Assembly: GCA_021613535.1 (NCBI GenBank)
Contig: CP075496.1
Coordinates: forward strand, 8,432,001-8,496,000
Reading direction: 5' to 3'
DNA: 64,000 nucleotides
Source of the DNA: Adineta vaga
Taxonomy: Eukaryota; Animalia; Rotifera
Shown here: piece after piece, positions 47,383 through 62,280 of the stretch
How the letters are laid out: every line of letters begins with the position of its first letter
How positions within the stretch are numbered: the first letter of the stretch is position 1
Translations under genes and position numbers: made by a program
Notes under the pieces: generated by a model
What the model saw: only the letters and a program-made list of their open reading frames with translations
What the model was told of the DNA's origin: nothing
Database searches by the model: none

Positions 47383-48233
47383 CTATGTAAAACTTCCACA
47401 ACATGAATTCTGTGAAGTAGTTGAATTTGAAGATGCTGTAGTATATCCAGCTTTGATTGTTTGAACACTATTTTGTTGTAAAGTTGCATTTGATTCCTCT
47501 TTCATTGAATCCATTCTTGCTGCCCAATGACGATAAATATCAGCGATTAATGTTCGAAATGCTTGTTCAACATTCGTAGCATCTAATGCAGATGTTTCAA
47601 CATAACTGTAAATTAAATGAAACAAAAGTATTTCTTTTTATTTGACTCAAATGAAATCTTACTGAATATTTCTTTCTTCAGCATATCGTTTCGCGTCATC
47701 ACTAAGCACAGCACGTATATGCCGTTGATCTAATTTATTCCCCACTAAGATAATACAACAATCAATACCAGCATTAGCTCGTACTTCATTGTACCTATTT
47801 AAAAAAAAAAGAAAGATTAAATTTTCAAGAAAATATTGTGAATAATTCATGTTTTTTACCATTGATCCAGATTTTGGAATGTTGATGCTTTAAGGATATC
47901 AAAAACAACGAGAGCACCTAATGCATTACGATAATAAGCTTTTGTTATGGCCATAAAACGCTCTTGACCAGCTAGAAATATGAAAAATACAATCAATACA
48001 ATTTTTTTAATACAAATCGATTTATCAATTTTACCAGTATCCCATATTTGTACTTTGATCGTTTTTCCATCGACTTGAACTTCTTTTGTTGAAAATTCGA
48101 CTCCTATTGTCGAACGACTTTCTAATGAAAATTCATTTCGAGTAAAACGTGATAATAAATTTGATTTTCCAACACCGGAATCACCCGTCAACACTATTTT
48201 AAATATATAATCAGCTGTCGATGGTTCTGCCAT
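47383..48233 (-). CDS. Rab11-family small GTPase (divergent paralog)
   Basis: Four exons give [60 protein letters not shown] and a C-terminal CCGSFT prenylation-type motif. Confidence 0.92.
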
Positions 48234-50257
48234 TGCTTTCTTTTTTAGTTTTACTTATACTAGAATGAAATACAAACGCATATATATGTATATACTTAAG
48301 GATCAAATCAGCGATCTGACTCATAGCATATGTCAATAGAGAAATATGAAAAAAATAATACATTCTGTGGCGTGATAGAACACTCAAGAGAAAAACAAAA
48401 AGTTTCGAGATGATTAAAATACATGAGAATTGGCAATTTTTTTCAAGCTTCAGCGAGAGATCTGTGTGAGTCAGACGAGAAAAACTAGTTTATATGTTAG
48501 TTTTCGTCACCTAGGCATTCAAGTGTAAAGAATGAGGTTGATGTCTCATCAGAACTGACTACGTGTATGCTCGTTCGTCATCGACGCGTCAATGTTGGCA
48601 AGAGAAAATGAAAGAAAATAGTGGTCGTTTTTTTCTTCTCAACTTAGTGAGTAGAGAGAAAGAAAGAAAGGGAGAGAGACAGCAAACGACAAAGAAAGAG
48701 GTGAGTCACATCATCTCGTCGGAGTTCACTTTGCGCTCTATTATTACTATAATTCGACGACAGACCGAACTGACAGAACAGAAATGGAGACACGAAGAAA
48801 AAAAAATTGACGAGAGGAGGAAAAAGAGAAAGAAAAAGGAATGTATAGTATACATATCTCATTTTGTACAGTGTATTATTCGTTGGCCAAGTAGAGGAGA
48901 ACAAAACAGAAGTCTATTGTATTTTAGTTCAGATGCTGGATTGTATAGATCATCAATAGAAAAAAAACAAATAAATTTTTAATCACGAAAAAGAAAAACG
49001 CTTTTTTTCCAGTGTAATGTTAAGCTTTGTTGTCAAATGATATAATGGTAGAAAAAAAGAATTTCAACCAGGTTTAAATTACAAGCAGTTGCAAATAGAC
49101 CTTAGCCTCTCTGATTAAATTACTTGTTGTAATTATTGTTTTCATGGGTTGATATAGAATTGTTCTCGTTTTTTTCTTCTTAAATTCATAGTATTGAACA
49201 CAACTAGTTGTTCACTTTTATAGTGGCAAGGAATTAACTCAATTCCTCGAGAATAATAATATTACGTCGGAAGGAAGAAAGAGGGAGAGAGAGAGAAGGA
49301 GCGCGATGTCTAAATTTCAGCTCTTAGCATGTTGTAGCATATATTAAGGCAATTATGTTGATTGTTAGATGAGTATGTATTATGATGACCTTGTTTATAC
49401 CATATTCCTTCGTTAGTACATGTACTCTATAGCAATAGATCTCTTATCGTTCTTATGCATATTGAGAAGAAGATTTGATGGTTATGTCTTTCTTTTGCAC
49501 TTAATCAATGTTTGATGGTGTTTTAATTTGTCTGAAGCTTTTGATACTGAGAAAAAGTGTTTTTAAGGTATGTATGATTAGTATCAAATTGGCTGTTAGA
49601 CAATTAGAGAGTTTGAGTATTTGATAGACTTTGATGAATATTCATTGATTAATAATTACGTACTCCTTAACGATAACGTCTAGAAATAGATATATGCTTC
49701 ATTTTTTTTCTTTTCGGTGAAAGAAGTTTGATTCATATATCAATGATAAAGTAGGAGTTTATATAAATGTTATCAAAAGTGTACATGATCTTCCATGAAT
49801 CACGTGTATTACTGTCCTGTACGATATATCAATAATGAATAATAAACAATGAATTATGAGTAAACGTGATATTCTTCTATCGCAAATACAAAGAAAGTTA
49901 TCAATACAACATTGCATGTATTTCGTACATCAATGTAATAGATTTCATTTCAACATGGTAAGTGAATTAGCTGTATACGAGATCGAGTAAATTTATCATC
50001 AATAATTATTTCAATAGGAGAATAACAATCAATGACGACAACTTTTTTGTAATTTTAAAGCATATCGAAATGCGTGACATATTTCATGATGGGCATGAGA
50101 GAAAAATATGTCTGACTAAAATCTTTTCAAAATTCATTTAATTTTTATCGTATAAATCTTTTAGTCAATATTTAATCGTCAAAATAGCCTTTATCTAAAC
50201 ACTCAGTTTAAAATATTTTTGCTAACGTACATGTTTGAATAAAATGATGTCTATTAA

Positions 50258-51696
<1,439 letters not shown>

Positions 51697-52620
51697 CACG
51701 TAAATTTTCAATAACTAATACAAATTATAAGAGAATCTAAACATTCAACTAATATTGGAAAATGATTCTTTTCAAATGCATCTTAAGTTAAGAATATAAA
51801 AATACTTTTTGACTTGAACTACTTCTTATAACCAATAATATTAGACCTCGATATGCTCGCGAGATGGCATGAAACATCTATGACTAAAATCAGTGTAACC
51901 AATAGTGAGTTTTTCAACTAATTAATTAGTTCTTCTTTTTTATATACATAATTGATAAAATTCTAACGTTGATATTTATTGTTTTATCTGCTTCTGTTTG
52001 AAAACTCAAAGCAAATCATCTGTTTACTACAAAATTATTTCATTCAAGCTATACTATGCTTTGTATGAATAGGTGAAAAATTGTAGTATGATAAAGATAT
52101 AAGTAAGAAATTTGATTATCGAAAAAGGTCGAAGTTTATTCTTTCTTGAAAAATCAGATTAAATATATATTAAAGCTGTAAATTCACAATGATTTTTGTA
52201 TCATAGATCAACAAAAGGACAACATTTTGTATAAGTCACCTTGTGTAATGTGTAATCGTATGTTTCGATGTTTTTCTTTCTGTAGCTAATGTGACTCATG
52301 ACGTTACACAACTATAAAGCTTTACCACACTGAGTATTTTGTTGCAGAAAAAAACCCAGTATAGTTTTGTCGGATAATTATATAAATAGAGATGCAGAAC
52401 ATAAAAAACTTTTGTTTTACAAAGTGAAAAATAGTCATCGACAAAATAAGAAAGAAACAGGATCGTACAAATTTTCAAAAAAAAGTGAGTCATTAAATAT
52501 ATACTCAAGCTAAAAGAACATTGTGTAAAGTAGAACAATTCATTTTTTCTGTTAGACTTGCAAAGATAAAATGTGTGCATCAAAAACGAAACTACAAAGC
52601 AAATCAACCAACGTAAAAAT

Positions 52621-55548
52621 ATGAATGTATGTAATATAATACTATTTAAAAAACTTATTCTAACATATGATTTACTTTACTAGATGCAGATCAATCAACA
52701 AACAAATGCGCTTGGTAGATTATCACTTACTTCAGGAAGAGAGTCTAGTACAATTTCAAAGACAAATCAAGGAGGAGCGACATCAAGACAGCAAGAAAAC
52801 ATGAAAAACATGAATGACGTCATTTACACCAATCATTTTCCTTGTCGTTTCGCTAGTGACATTACTTTCTATCAATATGATGCTACTGTTGAACAATATC
52901 ATAACAAAAAAAGCAAATTTATCTATATTACTGGTCGTGAAAGACGTCGTCAGGTCGTTACTAATATGTTCACAGACAAAATAATTCATCCAACAGCTGT
53001 CTGTTGGTATGATGAAGGAAGTTGTATTTATAGTACGACGATTCTCAGCGACACTTTTCCAATGATTTATGAAAAAGAAGATCGAGGATATCGTTATCGA
53101 CTAACAATCAATAGTCAATCAGCTACAAGTAGTACAAATGATTTCGATCAATCATCAATTCGAATTATAGAAACGTTGATCAAACAAGCATTAAAAGAAC
53201 AATTCAAATGTATTGGTTCAGTCTTCTACCGATGGGATGAAGAATGTAAACCAGATGGACCTTATGATCTTCTCAATGGATTTCGACAAGCTCTATGTCT
53301 TACGGAGTCAGATGTTACTTTGAATGTAGATACAACAACGACTCGATTCTATCCACATATGGAACTTTTACCATTTATTTGGGAAAGATTATTGAAAACG
53401 GAAAACCGTCCATTTGCCGGACGATTGTCCGATCAACAGTATCGTCAAATTAGTAATAATCTGAAAGATGTCGAAGTTACAACTATGCAATCGGAAAACG
53501 AAAAAACATATGTTCTAACTGGTGATTTTTCGCAACAACTTCCAGCACAAATTCCTGTTAGAGAACAGAATCTTTTAAACTATTACAAGGATCTTGGGTT
53601 TCCACTTCGCTATCCCAATCTTTACTGTTTGAAGGCATATAAACAAAATCATCAAGAAGAAATAGTTGATTTACCAATTGAACTTTGTCAACTTGGAGAA
53701 TGGCAGCAAGTCAAAGAAGATGAAAATACGAAACCTGTTCCTGCACCACCAGTCAACGCACGTTTCCATTCAATTATGAGAGTCGTACAAAACTGCAATT
53801 TTGATGATAGTGCATTATTTCGAGAAATTCAATTGGAAGTTGGTTGCGCCGAAATGATGGACGTGTCTTATGATACTTTAAGAAGCGTCAAATTAATCTC
53901 AGTCGACAACGCGGTTTTACTAATCCAGTTTCAATTGATAATATGGGATTTATCTATCTGACGGATCAACGTTACGATACTCGACAAACACAAAATAAAT
54001 TCTTGGAACAGTTTTTATGAAGTAGGAGCTATTTTTTATTATGAAGATTGTGTAATTCTTCTTCGTCGTATTCATTTATAGGCTGCTCAAAAACAACGAA
54101 TGGGTTTACCAGAAAATTGCGATGAAAACGAAGTTTTTGCTGACAAAAACATAGAAAGCAATCTTCGACGTCACTTGTCAAAACTTAAAGAAGGTCAATG
54201 TCAATTTGTTCTTTGCCTTGAAAACTGTCAAAATCCACAAATACATGAAGTTTTCAAAAAAATTGCTTGCAACGAATTAGGTAAGCATTGTTTTTCTGAG
54301 AAAATTCTTCTTATCATCTTCTTTCCACTTAGGTCTTGTTACTCAGTGTGCGAATTTTTCAAAAATTCAACGAGCAAGAAATCTAAGAAGCTATTGTGAT
54401 AATATTTTGCTATCAGTAAATGCTAAACTATCTGGTGAAAATAAACAAGTTGCTGATCTACGTACGCAAATCAAAACAATGTATGTAGGAGCTGACGTTC
54501 TTCATTCAAAGAATAACTACTCAGGTGAAATGCCGTCAATAGCAGCCGTTGTTGCTAGTATGAATTCTGAATGTACGTTGACAAATCAACGTGTGTCTCG
54601 ACAATGGCCTATGGATGGAAAACAATCAATAGAGGCAATTTTATTGTTGAAAGATATGATTGTAGATCTTTTATCGGCATTCAGAGACTGTAATGATGGT
54701 ACTCTACCCGAACGTATTGTTTTCTATCGTGATGGTGTCGATGATGGACAACTGGAACGTGTGAAAAATGAAGAAGTGATTGCTTTACGAGAAGCATTTA
54801 GAGGTAAAGAGTAATTTTTTTCTACTAGTTTACAGTAATTTGGATATTTGACTAATCTTGATTGAGAGAATCTGATCTGTTGAGTTGTAATTTGTCGATA
54901 GTTTTGTTAATGTATAATATTAAATGAGAGATATAGTTCTTTCTCTTTGAAGTCAACAGAAAATCACCGAGTATCATTACATTTCTAGAAATAATTTGAT
55001 TACTTTTGTTTTTTTTCTAGCCGTTTATCCACCAAATTCTTCATCTCCTTCTCTAACATTTATGGTAGTTAAGAAACGTCATCATACTCGTCTCTTTCGA
55101 CGAATAACATCAACAGAAGTTGCTAATGTTGAATCAGGTGTCGTAGTTGATAGTTGCATTGTTAATCCAAACTATCCCAACTTTTTCCTCAATTCACATG
55201 AACCCTGTTTGGGAACAAACAAAATTGGCAATTATATTGTTTTGGTTGACGACACTAATTGTTCCTTGAATGATCTTGAAGAACTCACTTACTCTCTTGT
55301 CATGTGGATCAACGTATCAGTAGTCGATCAAGCGAATCAATTCCAAGTGTTGTACACTTAGCTGATGCAGCTGCAAGTAAGGCAAGACAACTATTTGATC
55401 ATAGACAAAGGTAAGCTATCAAAGTTTTTCTTTAATCTTAGCTACTATCAACATATCTGTTCTATTTACTTTTAGAGCACCAAATGCACCTCGTGCAGAA
55501 ATTCATTATGCTCACGAAGATATGCAGAATGCACCAAATATGTTTTAA
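52621..55548 (+). CDS. Divergent Argonaute (N-L1-PAZ-L2-MID-PIWI), about 825 aa after correcting three single-base frameshifts
   Basis: Exons at about 52621-52626, 52684-54021, 54082-54280, 54333-54803, 55021-55410 and 55476-55548. Motifs include YTNHF..YQYD, GFRQAL..LNVD, LRYPNL..LPIELC, LGLVTQC, NAKLSGEN, MYVGADVLH, PSIAAVVAS, IVFYRDGVDDGQ, VVKKRHHTRLF, NVESGVVVDS and a C-terminal MF*. Confidence 0.92.
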
Positions 55549-55784: not shown

Positions 55785-57685
55785 TTAGATTTTCTGTTGA
55801 TCATCAGAAACAATCTCTTGAAGTTGACGCATCACTTTGGATGTAGCTGCTTTTGCTGGTAAATCAACATAAATTTCACGTCGGAATCCATTTCTTTCCT
55901 GACCAATTTTGATTCCTTCTACTTGGTGACGAATTTGTTCTCCCGTGATAGGTAATTCATAGAGTTCGTTAACGAGATCGAATATATCTTCAGGTTTTAT
56001 TACTTCACTGGTATTTGCCGTATTCTTTTGTTCTTCTGCTGTTCTTTTAAATAGGTCCATTTCTTTTCTATAATCATCTTTTATCTTCTGAAGATTATCA
56101 ATCATTTGCGTATTTTCAGCACCAGCACCTTGTTTCATTCGTTCTTCTCGAATGAAATATTCGAGATAATCTATATAATCATCGTTGGTTGATAATAACG
56201 CATTTACATGAAGAAATCGTACCAATTTTTTGTAAACATTCTGAATTTTTCTCTCTTCCTTTCGTAAATCGCTGATACGTTTATCAATATCATCCATAGT
56301 CATCGTTCTCTTTGATCTAGTCGTAACTGATTTAACATTTGTACGATTTGTTTTGTATTCATATGTAATATGTTTATGTTGTAACCAATGACAATCACAA
56401 ACAAGACAAAAGCCTAAAATGAAACAATCGAATTCATACGAAAATAAAAATTAATTATCATTAGTTTACCTTCATTTGGTTCCATTGCAGTACAATCCTG
56501 TAGTTTTTGATCATATAATGTTTCTTGTTTTACACCATTCAGATAACATTCATCATGACATATACTCAAATATTCTAATTTCTTCTCACCATTGATATCA
56601 ACAACTCTACAACATCTATCACCAACACAGACCGTTCGTGGATGTTTAAGATACACAATTTGTGCATCATTCTGAGGTATACCTTCAGATAAACCTCGAG
56701 GATTAGTAAGCACTTTTCGTTTATGATCTTGGGCAAGTTGAATGTTTTCTTCGATTAATTTAGCGGTTTCCGCCATTGGACGTGGAAATTTTCGAATTAA
56801 TTGTTCAGCTTCATTCAATGACACTGTATTACTAACTGCATGAAGTGAACATGCATTAATACTTTTCATAAGTCGTGCATATTCTTTGACTGAATGATCC
56901 CAACTTTTCGAATAACTTTGTGTTTCTTCAACATTGATATGTATCCCATTTTTACATAAAGCTAAATAACGAAATGCTTCATTATCGAATAGAAAAGAAT
57001 TTTCTCTCGAAAATGGAATAATAACGTTTTGTTCAATACGATGCTTATTTAGAAGACCTTCAATTAGTTGTTTTGAGGGACCAGGTGTGAAGAATGTTGC
57101 GCGAGCACTAGTAAAAACAAAATTCAAATTAGCAGCAGCTTCTATATGTAAATGTCGAAGAAGTTCGTTGACTGAAAATCGAAAAAGAATGTTCAGACGA
57201 TGTTCACCAGGTTTAAGCATAATAAAAATTGCATTTAAATGTTCATATTGAGATATGAAATTTAAGATTTCTTGAAAGTTTTTTTCATCTTGTTCAATAC
57301 CTCGAGTATCACCAATACCAGGTGTATCAATAAATCGCAAATTTCGATTACCGATCGGAAAAAGAAAACTTCGACATTGTTGTGTAGCAGATTGACCTTC
57401 AATACTGAATTTTTCATGTTCATCTTCGCGACCAATGACAATCAATCTTTCGTCAAATGTTTCATGCTCAGTATGAGAGAAGGCTGTTGGAATAACAACT
57501 TGCATATCATTATTGACTGCTTCTTCTAAAGTATCATAAGTAATATAATTAGCAAAAGCATTAATAAATGTCGATTTTCCGACTCCAGTAGGACCAAGTA
57601 ATAATATATTGATTTCACGCTCTCGTGGGCAATGTCGATTTGCTCGAAGAGAAGAACTATTTCGTCTCGAATAATTTGTAGCCAT
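55785..57685 (-). CDS. Septin/AIG1-like P-loop GTPase with a Cys/His-rich domain and helical C-terminus
   Basis: G1 LLGPTGVGKSTFIN, G2 SATQ, G3 IDTPG and G4-like FTSAR. Then RTVC..CC, CHDECYL and, after the intron at about 56469-56413, FCLVCDCHWLQHKHITYEY followed by a coiled-coil tail. Confidence 0.85.
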
Positions 57686-58532
57686 TTTATTACTTGTTTG
57701 TTTAAATCAAAAACTTCCACAATAAAGAAAATGAATGATCTAATTTGAATATTCGACATGAATTATAAATATTTGGGCTTCTTTATCGTGTATTTTGGAA
57801 AAAAACTTCAGTAAGAGAAGAAACAGAACAAAATCAATCTTCATATTACCACTCTTTCCTACCTTACTTCTCTACCAATGTTTTCATTATTGGATTATAA
57901 GAAAAGATAACACTACCAAATCGAAACGTCGATGGTTTATCACATGTGTGCTATGTGAAACTGTCTTTCTTACTACCTCCTTGTTAGTTGTGTTTTGCAA
58001 GAATATTAAAGAGGAAGAAAACAAAAGGTAGAATTATTGACATAGCACACGTGCTTGAAAATAAATGCAGACAATTCTTTTTTTTTGTAATAAAAATGGT
58101 GCAATACAGATGTTACGTTTTTTCCCGGTTTTAAAGTACAGGAAGACAAAAATGTAATGGTTTTTTCCAACATAAATTTCCCTGCAAGGAGAAATTATGG
58201 AATTATTAGAATTGTGTTTACCTATTTTAATACGTACGATTGGATTGTATGATAGATACTCATTCGAACACTGTACAAGTTTCCTTTCTCTGCTCAGTAA
58301 ATTGAATGAATAGTCTACTCAGAGAAATTGCATGATAGTGTCGGTAGATGTTTCTCAGGTCACAAAACATGTCTGATTATTTATCGTTGTCTGTACATAA
58401 ATATTATACGAATTAAAATTTCCTTAACACGAGAAGCTTTTAAACAAGACATTTATTATTTACACATGGAGTATGGATGTACCAAAAAGTTTATTTCTTT
58501 TGAGGGAAACTTTCAATGAAACATTTCTAGTA

Positions 58533-61500
58533 TTAAAAACGATTTGAATCATTGCAAATAACTTTTTCAGTATCTATTATTGAACGTTGTTGATATTGTT
58601 TGATAGCATTCCATTGTTCTTTGATCATAGAATTATTTTGAACTAATTCGAGTACACTATAAATATCAGATAATGACTTATTAGTTTCATTAGACTTAGT
58701 GTTGTAGAATTGTTCATATTGAGTTTTTAATTTATCTAATTCTTCAGCTAATTGTTGATTAAGACAAGTTTGATTTTTTCTATGGTAAATAATGTTTTCT
58801 TCTTGAATCATCCGAACGAAACCTGATAAAAATGGATCATCACCCTGTTCAACTTGAGTTTCTTTTAAAAAGTGTGCAAATTTTGTAGCTGCTTGACATA
58901 ATAACATTGCTTGTTGCTTTAAATCATCGATCGTTTCATATGTAATATTAGCACAATAATTATATTCGAGTCGATATGTCACTAAGACATGTTGTTTCGA
59001 TATACACTAAAAACGTACAAATTAAATCTTTCTTTCATATAGATTGTATTTCAAATCTAACCTGAGTTGTCAAAGAATGTAGATGATCTGTCAGTACAAA
59101 CAAAGAGCCAAACTTTGTTAATGGACGTTCATTTAAATAGCAAATCAACATTGATTGTTCAATTGATATAGCTTTTAATTCAATGGCTGAATGGATGGAA
59201 TGTAAAGAAATATTTCGAATAATATTTCGTATGGCTTCCAATATTGGTAGAATTAATAAATTGATTTGTATTTGAGCTTCTTGTATAGATTGCCATTCTT
59301 TATTTTTACGATATGGAAGTAAGTTTTGATCAAGATATTGTTCAAATCGTTTGGATTGTTGAACAGATTGTGTCCAACTTTTTTCGAATTCTTCTCTTTG
59401 AATTCCTTCAAAAGTTAACGAGTTTTGTAGAGAAACTAAATATCGAAATGATTCACTATCAAAACAGAATGTATTGTTTCTATCGAATGGTATATTTTTA
59501 ATTGGAAATGAATTAAAAAAGGATAATAATGCTGGTCGAGTGTCACCTGGTGCAAAAAATGTTGATCGTGCATTCGTAAAACAGAACATGAAATGTTGAC
59601 GAATATTTTCACCAAAAAATCGAAATAATTGAGTAAAACATGAGTATAAAAATGGATTCAATTGTTGAACATTTGGCTTAAATAAAAAACAGATACCATT
59701 TAAATATGGAAAATGATGAAGAAATGAAAAGATCATTTTCATATTGCATTCATCTTGATCAACTCCACGTGTGTCTCCAAAACCAGGTGTATCAATAATT
59801 CGTAACTTTTTCTTATGAGATATGTTAAAGATATAACAACGACATTGTTGAGTTACGGATTGACCAGAATGACTGTGATCTTCATTGGCATCGACATCAC
59901 CGAATTTAATAAGTTTTTCATCAAAGTTATCATTAATAGTCATTAGAAATGAAACAGGAATAATCACAAAAGGGTCGTTTGATTCAGCTTCTGCAAGCGT
60001 TTGATAGCGAAGATAGTTTGCAAAAGCATTGATAAATGTTGATTTTCCGACTCCAGACTCTCCAAGTAAAAGTATTGAGATATATTCTTCTTCGGGTACC
60101 GGTTGTACTTTCTTTTTCGATACTTTAACAGGCTCTGTTGACCGTGATAGATATCGATCAATTGTCTGTTCCTTTGATGAGAGGATAAATATCTTCTTTA
60201 AACACAAATTAGTATATGTGAAATCTGCATAAATTAAAGTTAGTTGTGGATTTTCCTGTCGTTCTTTTACTAATTGAGATTGCTTTTCATTCCATTTTGT
60301 TTTTGATCTTTGTTGGAGCTGATCGGTTGAACAAAAGATTCGTTTATTTATATCACCTTTGAAAAGTATCTCTTTAACCAGCTCATCCGTAGATTTTTCA
60401 TCAATTCCCAATTCAGTCATTTCATAGTATTCGAATCCATCATTTTGCAGTTGTCTAATTTGTTTTCCTTTCATTCTCAATTCATCTATAATTGCACTAA
60501 ATCGACTTGTAGAATAATCAATTGTTTTTTGATTATCTGAGTTTACTATTTCATCAATTGATTTCATAACATCTCTGTTTTCTCGAATTTCTACGAATAA
60601 TTCACCTATTTGACGGATAATGCTATGACAGAATTGTTTTATTTCTTCAAAACCTTTTTGAACACTGACTAGTCGATCGTTAAGTTTGCCTTGTAATAAT
60701 TCAGGTAATTCATGCTTTAGATAGAACTGCAATATTTTTAATTCTGCTGAATGTTGAAGTAGATAATACTCCAAAGGTTCCATTTCAGATTCTTCGAATA
60801 TAGTATACGCTATATCAGTTGAATTTGGTTCTGATTTGCGCGGTTGAAAAGGAGTGAGTGTATATTTCATTCGACGATGTTCTGTCGAATCTCTTGTGTG
60901 AATTACTCTGTATAGTGTATCGTAAAAATTGTTCATTGATGGTAAAGTAGGAATATTTGAATGGATTGTGATGAAAACGAGTTTATCTAACAGATCCAAT
61001 TCACTTTGCTTCAGTTCAATAAAACATTCATGATTTGCAAGATTGTGACGTATTCGTTCTAGTAAAGTATCAATTTCAACAGCTTGAGCGGGTGGTAATT
61101 GTAAAACGAGAACAGCATGAACACCGTATACAATTTTAGTTATAATATGTGTTGTGGAATTCATGATATTGCCTTTTCCATTCGATTCTATATATTTTAA
61201 AAGATTCTTCTTGTACGATTCGGATCGACTTTCATGATAAATGTATAGAAAGCGAGTATATTGATCAATAATTTGTGAATAATTGATAATAAAAGCAATA
61301 CCAGTTGGTTGAGTCAAGTTTAACATAATACTGAGACGCATAGATGCATCAATTCCGACCATTTTCAGTAGGTTTTGACTATCAATCGTACGTCCATGAT
61401 ATAATTTACATACTATGGGACCATTTAAGTCTTTCGATTCTCTTTTATCTTCACAATGTAATTTTCCTAACATTCTATCATGGTACCTACTGTACATGGA

Positions 61501-61623
61501 TCCAATGTCACCTGATTGATCGATAGCAATGCATTCAATATCGCATTGTTTTGTTTTCTTTTGGTTTAAATTCCTATCTTGATTGGAAAAAAATGTCTTT
61601 AGTGAAGTCAATAGTTTAGCCAT
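58533..61623 (-). CDS. Stonustoxin/verrucotoxin-type MACPF/CDC-like domain fused to a septin/AIG1-like GTPase
   Basis: The N-terminus AIDQSGDIGSMYSRYHD..VGIDASMRLSIMLNL..TGIAFIINY..THIITKIVYGVHAVLVL resembles the stonustoxin N-terminal motifs (ALGRP.LGxLYD, ASLKxS, THVVTxIxYG). The C-terminal half has LLGESGVGKSTFINAFANY, SVTQ, IDTPGFGDTRG and FTNAR. Intron at 59061-59007. Confidence 0.78.
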
Positions 61624-62280
61624 AGTTGATCTAGTAAATAGAATTTTAATACTGATGGTTGATAATTTTACTCAACGAAAGAAAATATTGTGAATTTTGA
61701 GTATATGTCTTACTCGGTAAATATCAAAACTTTTATTTTGATCGATGTTCTTGACTTCGTAAAGTAATATAAATCTTAGACGTTTTTTTTCATTCTCTAT
61801 AAACACTTGCGAATGAGAAGCAGTAAGAAAAAGTAATAGAAAAGAAAAAGAATTTTTTTCCAACATAATAAGACACGTGCATTTGATTGTAAAGAAATAA
61901 AATAAATAAAAGATTTCAATTTCTATAAAGTTTTTCATGAAATATATATAAAAAAATACGTTTTGGCTATTTTTGTCATAGGATTTTTTCTTTGTTTCTA
62001 AATATGGATTTATTTCGTTTAACGAGAAATTTCTTGAAAACTGATAATCGGTAGGTCGATTGAATTTGACTTGTCATGGATTATTGATAAATAAGCTAAA
62101 TATGTTAAATACATGTTAAAAGAATATTGTCTGAGGTGATAAGATATCTTTTCGATTTTTTTGTTTGAAATAACAAGCAAACATGTGACTTGTCGACTTC
62201 TCACGATAATATTTTTTGTTTTTTTAATCTATAAAGTAACGATATTTAAAACAATAGTCATTGTCGTTACAATATAAATC

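What the first reader, a model, noticed from the sequence alone, without database searches (positions are those of the whole stretch)
52621..55548. Atypical Argonaute: DEDD tetrad and remodelled 5'-end binding pocket
Seen: the catalytic positions are GADVLH (D), SIEAI (E), YRDGV (D) and VVHLADAA, with D where AGO2 has the H of YYAH, so the tetrad is DEDD. The MID pocket reads IHEVFKK..LVTQC..NILLSVNAKLSG: the Tyr of AGO2 YAEVK is His and the first Lys of LKINxK is Ser. Known: these residues bind the guide 5' nucleotide and phosphate, and bdelloids are reported to have expanded divergent Argonaute clades and RdRPs. Inference: a slicer-competent, non-miRNA Argonaute that may load unusual guides such as RdRP-made 5'-triphosphate RNAs.
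Basis: partly seen in the sequence, partly recalled or inferred. Interest (0 to 1): 0.7.

Follow-up and report, generated by a model that had tools for sequence, protein, structure and literature searches.

The report
Rotifer Argonaute with worm-like guide pocket
A bdelloid rotifer Argonaute gene, intact and spliced once three assembly errors are set aside, carries the guide-binding histidine of nematode WAGO proteins (likely gained independently) and lacks a conserved lysine, so it is predicted to cut RNA and likely grips its guide through a metal ion, which offers a test of whether that histidine selects triphosphate guides.

Summary
All 4 sequencing runs laid restore the frame, and two lack five GT-AG introns. 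The gene is therefore an intact, spliced 825-aa Argonaute, the Adineta vaga locus I4U23_019710. DEDD is ordinary: 34 of 142 other Argonautes have it. The pocket is the unusual part. His for Y529 and Ser/Thr for K566 are fixed in an Adineta-Rotaria clade and absent from those 142. The Didymodactylos sister keeps Tyr and Lys, so the change arose inside a bdelloid-specific family. Grouping with a miRNA-type AGO is rejected. H-K-Q-K is the nematode WAGO motif, hypothesised but not shown to select 5'-triphosphate guides. Against that reading: WAGOs keep K566, a bacterial HKQK Argonaute uses monophosphate guides with Mg2+, and Y-to-H also occurs alone in 4 of 83 other family members. Best reading: a predicted slicer whose pocket likely uses a metal in place of the lysine. 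Triphosphate preference about 25%. New variant of a known kind.

The parts
52485..52555 (+). 5'-UTR intron (GT..AG)
   Evidence: joint 52484->52556 in run X14, 52482->52556 in X9
52621..52626 (+). coding exon 1 (ATG AAT)
   Evidence: joint 52626->52684 GT..AG in X9 and X14; in frame
52684..54021 (+). coding exon 2: N, L1, PAZ, L2 and start of MID; holds two assembly indels
   Evidence: Pfam ArgoN E 3e-7, PAZ E 1e-5 (below curated cut-off), ArgoL1 weak; joints
53885..53886 (+). assembly error 1: one base missing from the window
   Evidence: one extra base in 4 of 4 runs (table 4)
54005..54008 (+). assembly error 2: one base too many, apparently a merge of two alleles
   Evidence: X1 has two contigs lacking one base at 54005 or 54007; X2 lacks 54005; X9 and X14 lack 54008 (tables 4 and 5c)
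54082..54280 (+). coding exon 3: MID domain with His (54244-54246, at AGO2 Y529) and Lys (54256-54258, K533)
54333..54803 (+). coding exon 4: Gln (54344, Q545), Ser (54413-54415, at K566), Lys (54425, K570), catalytic Asp (54494), Glu (54632), Asp (54731)
   Evidence: Pfam Piwi E 4.5e-31; alignment to AGO2; codons
55021..55410 (+). coding exon 5: PIWI C-half with fourth catalytic Asp (55364-55366, at H807) and Lys at R812 (55379-55381)
   Evidence: Pfam Piwi E 9e-19; joints
55297..55298 (+). assembly error 3: one base missing, which puts the fourth Asp out of frame in the window
   Evidence: one extra base in 4 of 4 runs (table 4)
55476..55548 (+). coding exon 6: C-terminus ...APNMF, stop TAA
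   Evidence: joint across 55411-55475 in X9 and X14

Best explanation
This is an intact, spliced AGO-type Argonaute of a bdelloid-specific family, predicted to be an RNA slicer, whose guide 5'-end pocket reads His-Lys-Gln-Lys with Ser in place of Lys566 and likely uses a divalent metal where other AGO-clade proteins use that lysine. Mechanism: the guide's first base would stack on the His; K533, Q545, K570 and the C-terminal carboxylate would hold the 5' phosphate; Mg2+ would fill the space and charge left by the lysine, as in PIWI and prokaryotic Argonautes. The guides are most likely a special class of 5'-monophosphate siRNA- or piRNA-like RNAs, with a different 5'-base preference because the specificity loop differs. 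The DEDD site would cut paired targets, likely transposon, foreign-gene or viral RNA. Shown: gene structure, splicing, residues, clade and conservation. Inferred: slicing, metal use, guide class and targets.
For: 825-aa ORF with five GT-AG introns removed in two runs. His in 10 of 10 clade rows with a residue, Ser/Thr in 12 of 12, last Asp in 11 of 11; the rows include the window and its own annotation P0007. Conserved across Adineta and Rotaria at 64-68% identity, with 333 of 756 columns invariant among 6 members after a long stem. K533, Q545, K570 and a C-terminus of canonical length by sequence are kept, which argues for a phosphorylated guide. PMC4390867 (passages): eukaryotic AGOs neutralise the pocket with a lysine where prokaryotic ones use a metal. 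PMC9360449 (passages): PIWIs and most pAgos use Mg2+, and PnyAgo with HKQK prefers 5'-P guides and needs Mg2+. Human PIWIL2 has Gln at this position. The AlphaFold model of the orthologue (pLDDT 90.8) matches human AGO1/AGO2 best (Z 44.7, rmsd 5.3 over 725 residues).
Against: No metal, guide or cleavage data exist. Ser is shorter than the PIWI Gln and may not ligate a metal; water or a neighbouring Lys could do the job. The structure tools gave ranges, not residue pairs, so pocket geometry was not inspected. The WAGO-like His points towards triphosphate guides instead. The residue at R812 varies in the clade (K 7, N 2, R, T, plus one G from a truncated row), which fits a relaxed pocket.
Confidence: 0.45

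Rival explanations
1. It is a convergent analogue of nematode CSR-1/WAGO: it loads unprimed RdRP products through their 5' triphosphate. The His replaces Tyr as in WAGOs, and the lost lysine makes room for the beta and gamma phosphates with a chelated Mg2+. It slices targets in an amplification loop that replaces ping-pong.
For: HKQK marks all WAGOs of nematode clades III-V and co-occurs with triphosphate RNAs and their RdRPs (PMC12908457 section 13). WAGO-1, PPW-1 and PPW-2 show His-Lys or His-Gln-Gln-Ile-Lys at this place in the Nowell alignment. Bdelloids average 38.9 RdRP copies (PMC7943196), and A. vaga lacks ping-pong. His is absent from 142 other AGO-clade proteins.
Against: The review says the role of His versus Tyr is unresolved. 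The three WAGOs read keep the K566-equivalent lysine. PnyAgo uses HKQK for monophosphate DNA guides. Y-to-H, a single transition, also occurs in 4 of 83 other family members whose close orthologues keep Tyr. The clade is small: at most 2 full-length clusters per species were found. RdRP-bearing Branchiostoma showed no triphosphate siRNAs (PMC6396948). No report of triphosphate small RNAs in bdelloids turned up, but Rodriguez and Arkhipova 2016 could not be read.
Confidence: 0.25
2. The pocket changes are tolerated drift in a fast-evolving family. The protein loads ordinary Dicer-made monophosphate siRNAs with lower 5'-end stringency and no special chemistry.
For: The whole bdelloid family has lost R812 (Ala, Gly or Gln in most rows). 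His appears twice on the tree. The stem branch is long (0.86), and the PAZ domain is also divergent.
Against: K566 is kept in 140 of 142 other Argonautes and in 80 of 80 other family members with a residue there. His and Ser/Thr are fixed across two genera, which fits selection better than drift.
Confidence: 0.22
3. It uses DNA guides or 5'-hydroxyl guides, like some prokaryotic Argonautes.
For: HKQK with DEDD is the combination in DNA-guided, RNA-cutting PnyAgo-type pAgos.
Against: It nests among eukaryotic AGO-clade proteins. The three phosphate-binding residues K533, Q545 and K570 are kept, unlike the hydrophobic 5'-OH pocket of MpAgo.
Confidence: 0.05
4. It is a pseudogene, as the three frameshifts in the window suggest.
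For: The assembled CDS stops at residue 428.
Against: 4 of 4 runs restore the frame, two are spliced, and full-length orthologues exist in four other species.
Confidence: 0.02

Closest known systems
Bdelloid-specific Argonaute clades (BDAGO I/II; Nowell et al. 2021, PMC7943196)
   Same: It belongs to a bdelloid-only divergent AGO family (18 rows, 100/100). A PIWI-truncated R. sordida member of this very subclade, Rd10x_p|g35386.t1, is in their alignment.
   Different: Most family members have YKQKK and DEDH (45 of 83) or a broken tetrad such as DEAT (18 of 83). The paper's main text has no 'catalytic', 'slicer' or 'triphosphate'. Whether it is clade I or II could not be read, because the tree line was cut.
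Nematode WAGO clade, especially CSR-1
   Same: H-K-Q-K pocket motif, in an animal with many RdRPs. CSR-1 combines triphosphate 22G guides with slicing (recalled).
   Different: Likely independent origin, since its sisters keep Tyr. WAGOs keep the K566 lysine. WAGO-1, PPW-1 and PPW-2 lack the tetrad. Guide chemistry is unknown here.
Human AGO2 and miRNA-type AGOs
   Same: Best solved-structure matches by sequence (149 bits against 93 for the best PIWI) and by fold. D597, E637, D669, K533, Q545 and K570 are kept.
   Different: Y529H, K566S, H807D and R812K. The specificity loop reads ENCQNPQ in place of PGKTP. The PAZ domain is shortened. Identity to AGO2 is about 23-25%. Grouping is rejected.
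PIWI-clade proteins and PnyAgo-type prokaryotic Argonautes
   Same: No lysine at the K566 position in PIWIL2, with metal-assisted 5'-phosphate binding. PnyAgo has HKQK and DEDD.
   Different: PIWI has Gln there and this protein Ser. It is more similar to the AGO clade than to PIWIs. pAgos are remote.

Membership tests
Eukaryotic Argonaute | [quoted passage not shown] | tested here: met
   Pfam ArgoN, PAZ (weak) and Piwi; 825-aa ORF; fold match over residues 33-829 of the orthologue model
Slicer Argonautes | DEDX tetrad (X = D or H) | tested here: met
   DEDD in all clade rows with residues; definition in PMC4390867 and PMC12908457
Slicer Argonautes | Guide-directed target cleavage | not testable with these tools
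   needs an in vitro assay
Canonical miRNA AGO | Groups with miRNA-type AGOs | tested here: not met
   AU p 2e-53 against a clade with Cichlidogyrus Argonaute-1 P0111, the only named miRNA-type AGO in the set
Canonical miRNA AGO | YKQK pocket and conserved PGKTP specificity loop | tested here: not met
   HKQK and ENCQNPQ
Nematode WAGO | HKQK pocket motif | tested here: met
Nematode WAGO | Lysine kept at the AGO2 K566 position | tested here: not met
   WAGO-1, PPW-1 and PPW-2 have Lys (3 WAGOs read); the window has Ser
Nematode WAGO | Phylogenetic membership | tested here: inconclusive
   No WAGO sequence was available for my trees; the clade nests among bdelloid proteins with Tyr, which argues against membership
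Nematode WAGO | Loads 5'-triphosphate RdRP products | not testable with these tools
   needs IP and sequencing with and without polyphosphatase
PIWI clade | Gln at the K566 position and closer similarity to PIWIs than to AGOs | tested here: not met
   Ser here against Gln in PIWIL2; 149 bits to AGO2 against 93 to the best PIWI; no PIWI in my trees
Bdelloid-specific Argonautes (BDAGO) | Member of a divergent clade whose named members are all bdelloids | tested here: met
   100/100 clade of 18 rows; names
Bdelloid-specific Argonautes (BDAGO) | Assignment to BDAGO I or BDAGO II | tested here: inconclusive
   tree file cut at 400 characters; figure not held

The most novel reading that the evidence does not exclude
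Bdelloid rotifers have independently evolved a CSR-1-like slicer that loads 5'-triphosphate RdRP products. This would be a second animal origin of the HKQK triphosphate pocket, with a new Lys-to-Ser, metal-assisted solution, and would imply an undiscovered triphosphate small-RNA class that replaces ping-pong in A. vaga.
Probability: 0.25. Interest if true: 0.8.

Novelty: new variant of a known kind. Interest (0 to 1): 0.5.

Why it matters
A 2026 review lists as an open question why WAGOs carry HKQK and whether it selects triphosphate guides (PMC12908457). Here the motif occurs in an unrelated, RdRP-rich animal, beside paralogues and a sister protein that keep Tyr and Lys. That gives a natural comparison and simple reversion tests. 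Loss of K566 in an AGO-clade protein also tests the rule that AGO-clade proteins use a lysine where PIWIs use a metal. Practically, the public annotation of this locus (686 aa) is truncated and gapped by assembly indels, and a weak PAZ score can hide the clade from surveys.

Tried and rejected
No whole genome is held, so paralogue number and synteny in A. vaga were not tested. No listed run is on record as RNA; expression rests on spliced contigs in X9 and X14, and X14 is the same sample as X1. Table 3 shows no allele difference at the key codons, but 29 rows were not shown, and no second set of runs was laid. WAGO and PIWI sequences were not among any protein hits, so they are missing from the trees; three WAGOs were read by eye in the Nowell supplement. 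Motif searches LADAA and QADLA in that supplement found nothing, and no entry named CSR-1 is in it. The structure searches gave no residue pairs, and no WAGO structure appeared among PDB hits, which is inconclusive. The ESM Atlas gave generic Argonaute clusters, some mostly nematode, at near-equal scores; not used as evidence. Literature searches: bdelloid + argonaute + MID domain gave 0 papers; HKQK gave 16 papers, 2 relevant; Entamoeba pocket gave nothing useful. Rodriguez and Arkhipova 2016 is not held. Earlier findings of the scan: none. Rejected: pseudogene; DEDD as an oddity; horizontal origin of the gene (its nearest relatives are bdelloid paralogues).

Full report
Observation. Pfam finds ArgoN, a weak PAZ and Piwi on the exons. 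As assembled, however, the coding sequence shifts frame three times, near 53885, 54005-54008 and 55297. It stops at residue 428, and the last catalytic motif VVHLADAA lies in a different frame from the PIWI part before it.

Gene integrity and expression. Of 24 runs listed, 4 were laid (at most 3 samples). All 4 carry one extra base after 53885 and after 55297. All 4 lack one base at 54005-54008, where X1 shows two alleles that the assembly seems to have merged. X9 and X14 lack five coding-region introns with GT..AG ends plus a 5'-UTR intron, while X1 and X2 keep them. Neither run is on record as RNA, but spliced contigs are hard to explain otherwise. With these differences the CDS is 2478 nt and gives 825 aa with one terminal stop. 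The public protein P0007 (Adineta vaga I4U23_019710, 686 aa) matches the window but starts at residue 97 and skips the frameshifted parts. The window is therefore this A. vaga locus.

Residue assignment. The phmmer alignment of the A. ricciae orthologue P0001 (68% identical) to human AGO2 and AGO3 places His on Y529, Lys on K533, Gln on Q545, Ser on K566 and Lys on K570. It places Asp-Glu-Asp-Asp on D597, E637, D669 and H807; MAFFT auto and linsi alignments agree. An AlphaFold2 model of P0001 (84-row alignment, pLDDT 90.8, pTM 0.90) matches human AGO1/AGO2 best: Foldseek E 1.7e-55; VIA Z 44.7, rmsd 5.3 over 725 residues, against MILI Z 41.8. These tools gave ranges, not residue pairs, so the pocket geometry was not inspected.

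What is unusual. The comparison set was 161 aligned rows, after dropping 8 near-duplicates and fragments under 230 aa: 19 clade rows, and 142 others taken from the 150 best phmmer hits. Among the 142 others, the fourth tetrad residue is His in 103 and Asp in 34, so DEDD is ordinary. DEDD/H is also the textbook definition (PMC12908457 and PMC4390867 passages). The Y529 position is Tyr in 133 of 142 and never His. The K566 position is Lys in 140 of 142 and never Ser/Thr. In the clade, His is present in 10 of 10 rows with a residue, Ser/Thr in 12 of 12 and the last Asp in 11 of 11 (the window and its annotation are both counted). Members are named from A. vaga, A. ricciae, A. steineri and five Rotaria taxa.

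Phylogeny. A FastTree of 140 rows and an IQ-TREE LG+G4 tree of 44 rows that I chose, both with the trait columns removed, agree. The His/Ser clade (100/100, stem 0.86) is sister to Didymodactylos carnosus P0017 (36% identical, YKQKK, DEDD). Both lie in a bdelloid-only family (100/100) whose other members are mostly YKQKK/DEDH. So the Asp came first, and His and Ser arose together on the stem of the Adineta-Rotaria clade. Holding the clade with the flatworm Argonaute-1 P0111 costs 249 log-likelihood units (AU p 2e-53). No WAGO or PIWI was available for the trees. Among 83 further family members, 45 are YKQKK/DEDH, 18 have a broken DEAT tetrad and 2 have DEDD. Four (R. socialis, R. magnacalcarata) have His alone while their close orthologues keep Tyr, and all 80 with a residue at the K566 position keep Lys. 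Nowell et al. 2021 (PMC7943196: passages, supplement 16 parts 1, 25, 55, 64 and searches) report bdelloid-specific clades BDAGO I/II and on average 21.5 Argonautes and 38.9 RdRPs per genome. Their alignment holds a PIWI-truncated R. sordida member of this subclade. Their main text does not use the words catalytic, slicer or triphosphate. The tree file was cut, so clade I or II is unassigned.

Comparison with known pockets. PMC12908457 (section 13 read whole; passages) states that all WAGOs of nematode clades III-V carry HKQK in place of YKQK. It calls the link to 5'-triphosphate guides a hypothesis and lists it as an open question. The window has exactly HKQK. However, WAGO-1, PPW-1 and PPW-2 keep the K566 lysine, so the Ser is not part of the WAGO signature. 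PMC4390867 (passages) says eukaryotic AGOs neutralise the pocket with a lysine where prokaryotic ones use a metal bound to the C-terminus. PMC9360449 (passages) adds that PIWIs use Mg2+, and that PnyAgo, with HKQK and DEDD, prefers 5'-monophosphate DNA guides and needs Mg2+. Human PIWIL2 has Gln at this position. A. vaga lacks the ping-pong signature, and RdRP compensation has been suggested (PMC12256650 passages). RdRP-bearing Branchiostoma showed no triphosphate siRNAs (PMC6396948 passages). PMC10101689 (passages) says WAGOs prefer triphosphate guides and have divergent pocket residues. Rodriguez and Arkhipova 2016, the main A. vaga small-RNA paper, could not be read and may bear on this. 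CSR-1 slicing is recalled, not checked.

Mechanism. Shown: an intact, spliced gene; a conserved DEDD; a conserved H-K-Q-S-K pocket; membership of a bdelloid-specific AGO family. Inferred: slicing (about 0.8), and a phosphorylated RNA guide, since K533, Q545, K570 and the C-terminal length are kept. I rank a metal-assisted pocket holding a specialised monophosphate guide class first (0.45). A triphosphate, CSR-1-like role comes second (0.25), tolerated drift third (0.22), DNA or hydroxyl guides at 0.05 and pseudogene at 0.02. The first two readings share the metal prediction and differ only in guide chemistry, which one sequencing experiment would settle.

Novelty. The family is known and DEDD is common. 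The His-plus-Ser pocket in a bdelloid Argonaute was not found in print, which cover open-licence papers only. Verdict: a new variant of a known kind, interest 0.5, rising to 0.8 if triphosphate guides are found.

Noticed in passing
window 53885, 54005-54008, 55297: Three single-base assembly errors within one 2.5-kb CDS. The public annotation I4U23_019710 lacks the first 96 residues and skips the affected parts, so other genes of this assembly may be mis-annotated in the same way.
   Followed up: yes
window about 53440-53720 (PAZ): The PAZ domain is also remodelled. It is shorter than in AGO2-type proteins, has Asp before the LPxE motif in the 4 clade members shown where the others shown have Tyr, His or Trp, and scores near or below the Pfam cut-off (25.8, 20.8 and 29.7 bits against 28.8). 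3'-end recognition may differ, and PAZ-plus-PIWI surveys may miss the clade.
   Followed up: partly
P0175, P0176, P0181, P0200: A second, recent Y-to-H change at the Y529 position in R. socialis and R. magnacalcarata, with K566 and DEDH kept; close orthologues keep Tyr.
   Followed up: partly
P0234-P0252: A conserved bdelloid subclade with a broken tetrad (DEAT in 18 of 83 rows); most of the wider family has lost R812.
   Followed up: no
model m459d0d218bc6, C-terminus: VIA-align ends the model's last residue on the second-last residue of nearly every target (AGO2 858 of 859), while sequence alignment gives equal length. This may be an aligner artefact or a carboxylate withdrawn by one residue.
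   Followed up: no
window 55785-57706 and 58533-61671 (- strand): Two tandem AIG1/septin-like P-loop GTPase genes lie just downstream, converging on the Argonaute.
   Followed up: no
window 9302-62820: Other neighbours look unrelated to RNAi: 7TM receptor, histidine phosphatase, Piezo, acyltransferase-3/NRF, a Ras-family GTPase at 47856-48254 and a Sina zinc finger. No RdRP or Dicer was found among the 17 window ORFs scanned.
   Followed up: partly
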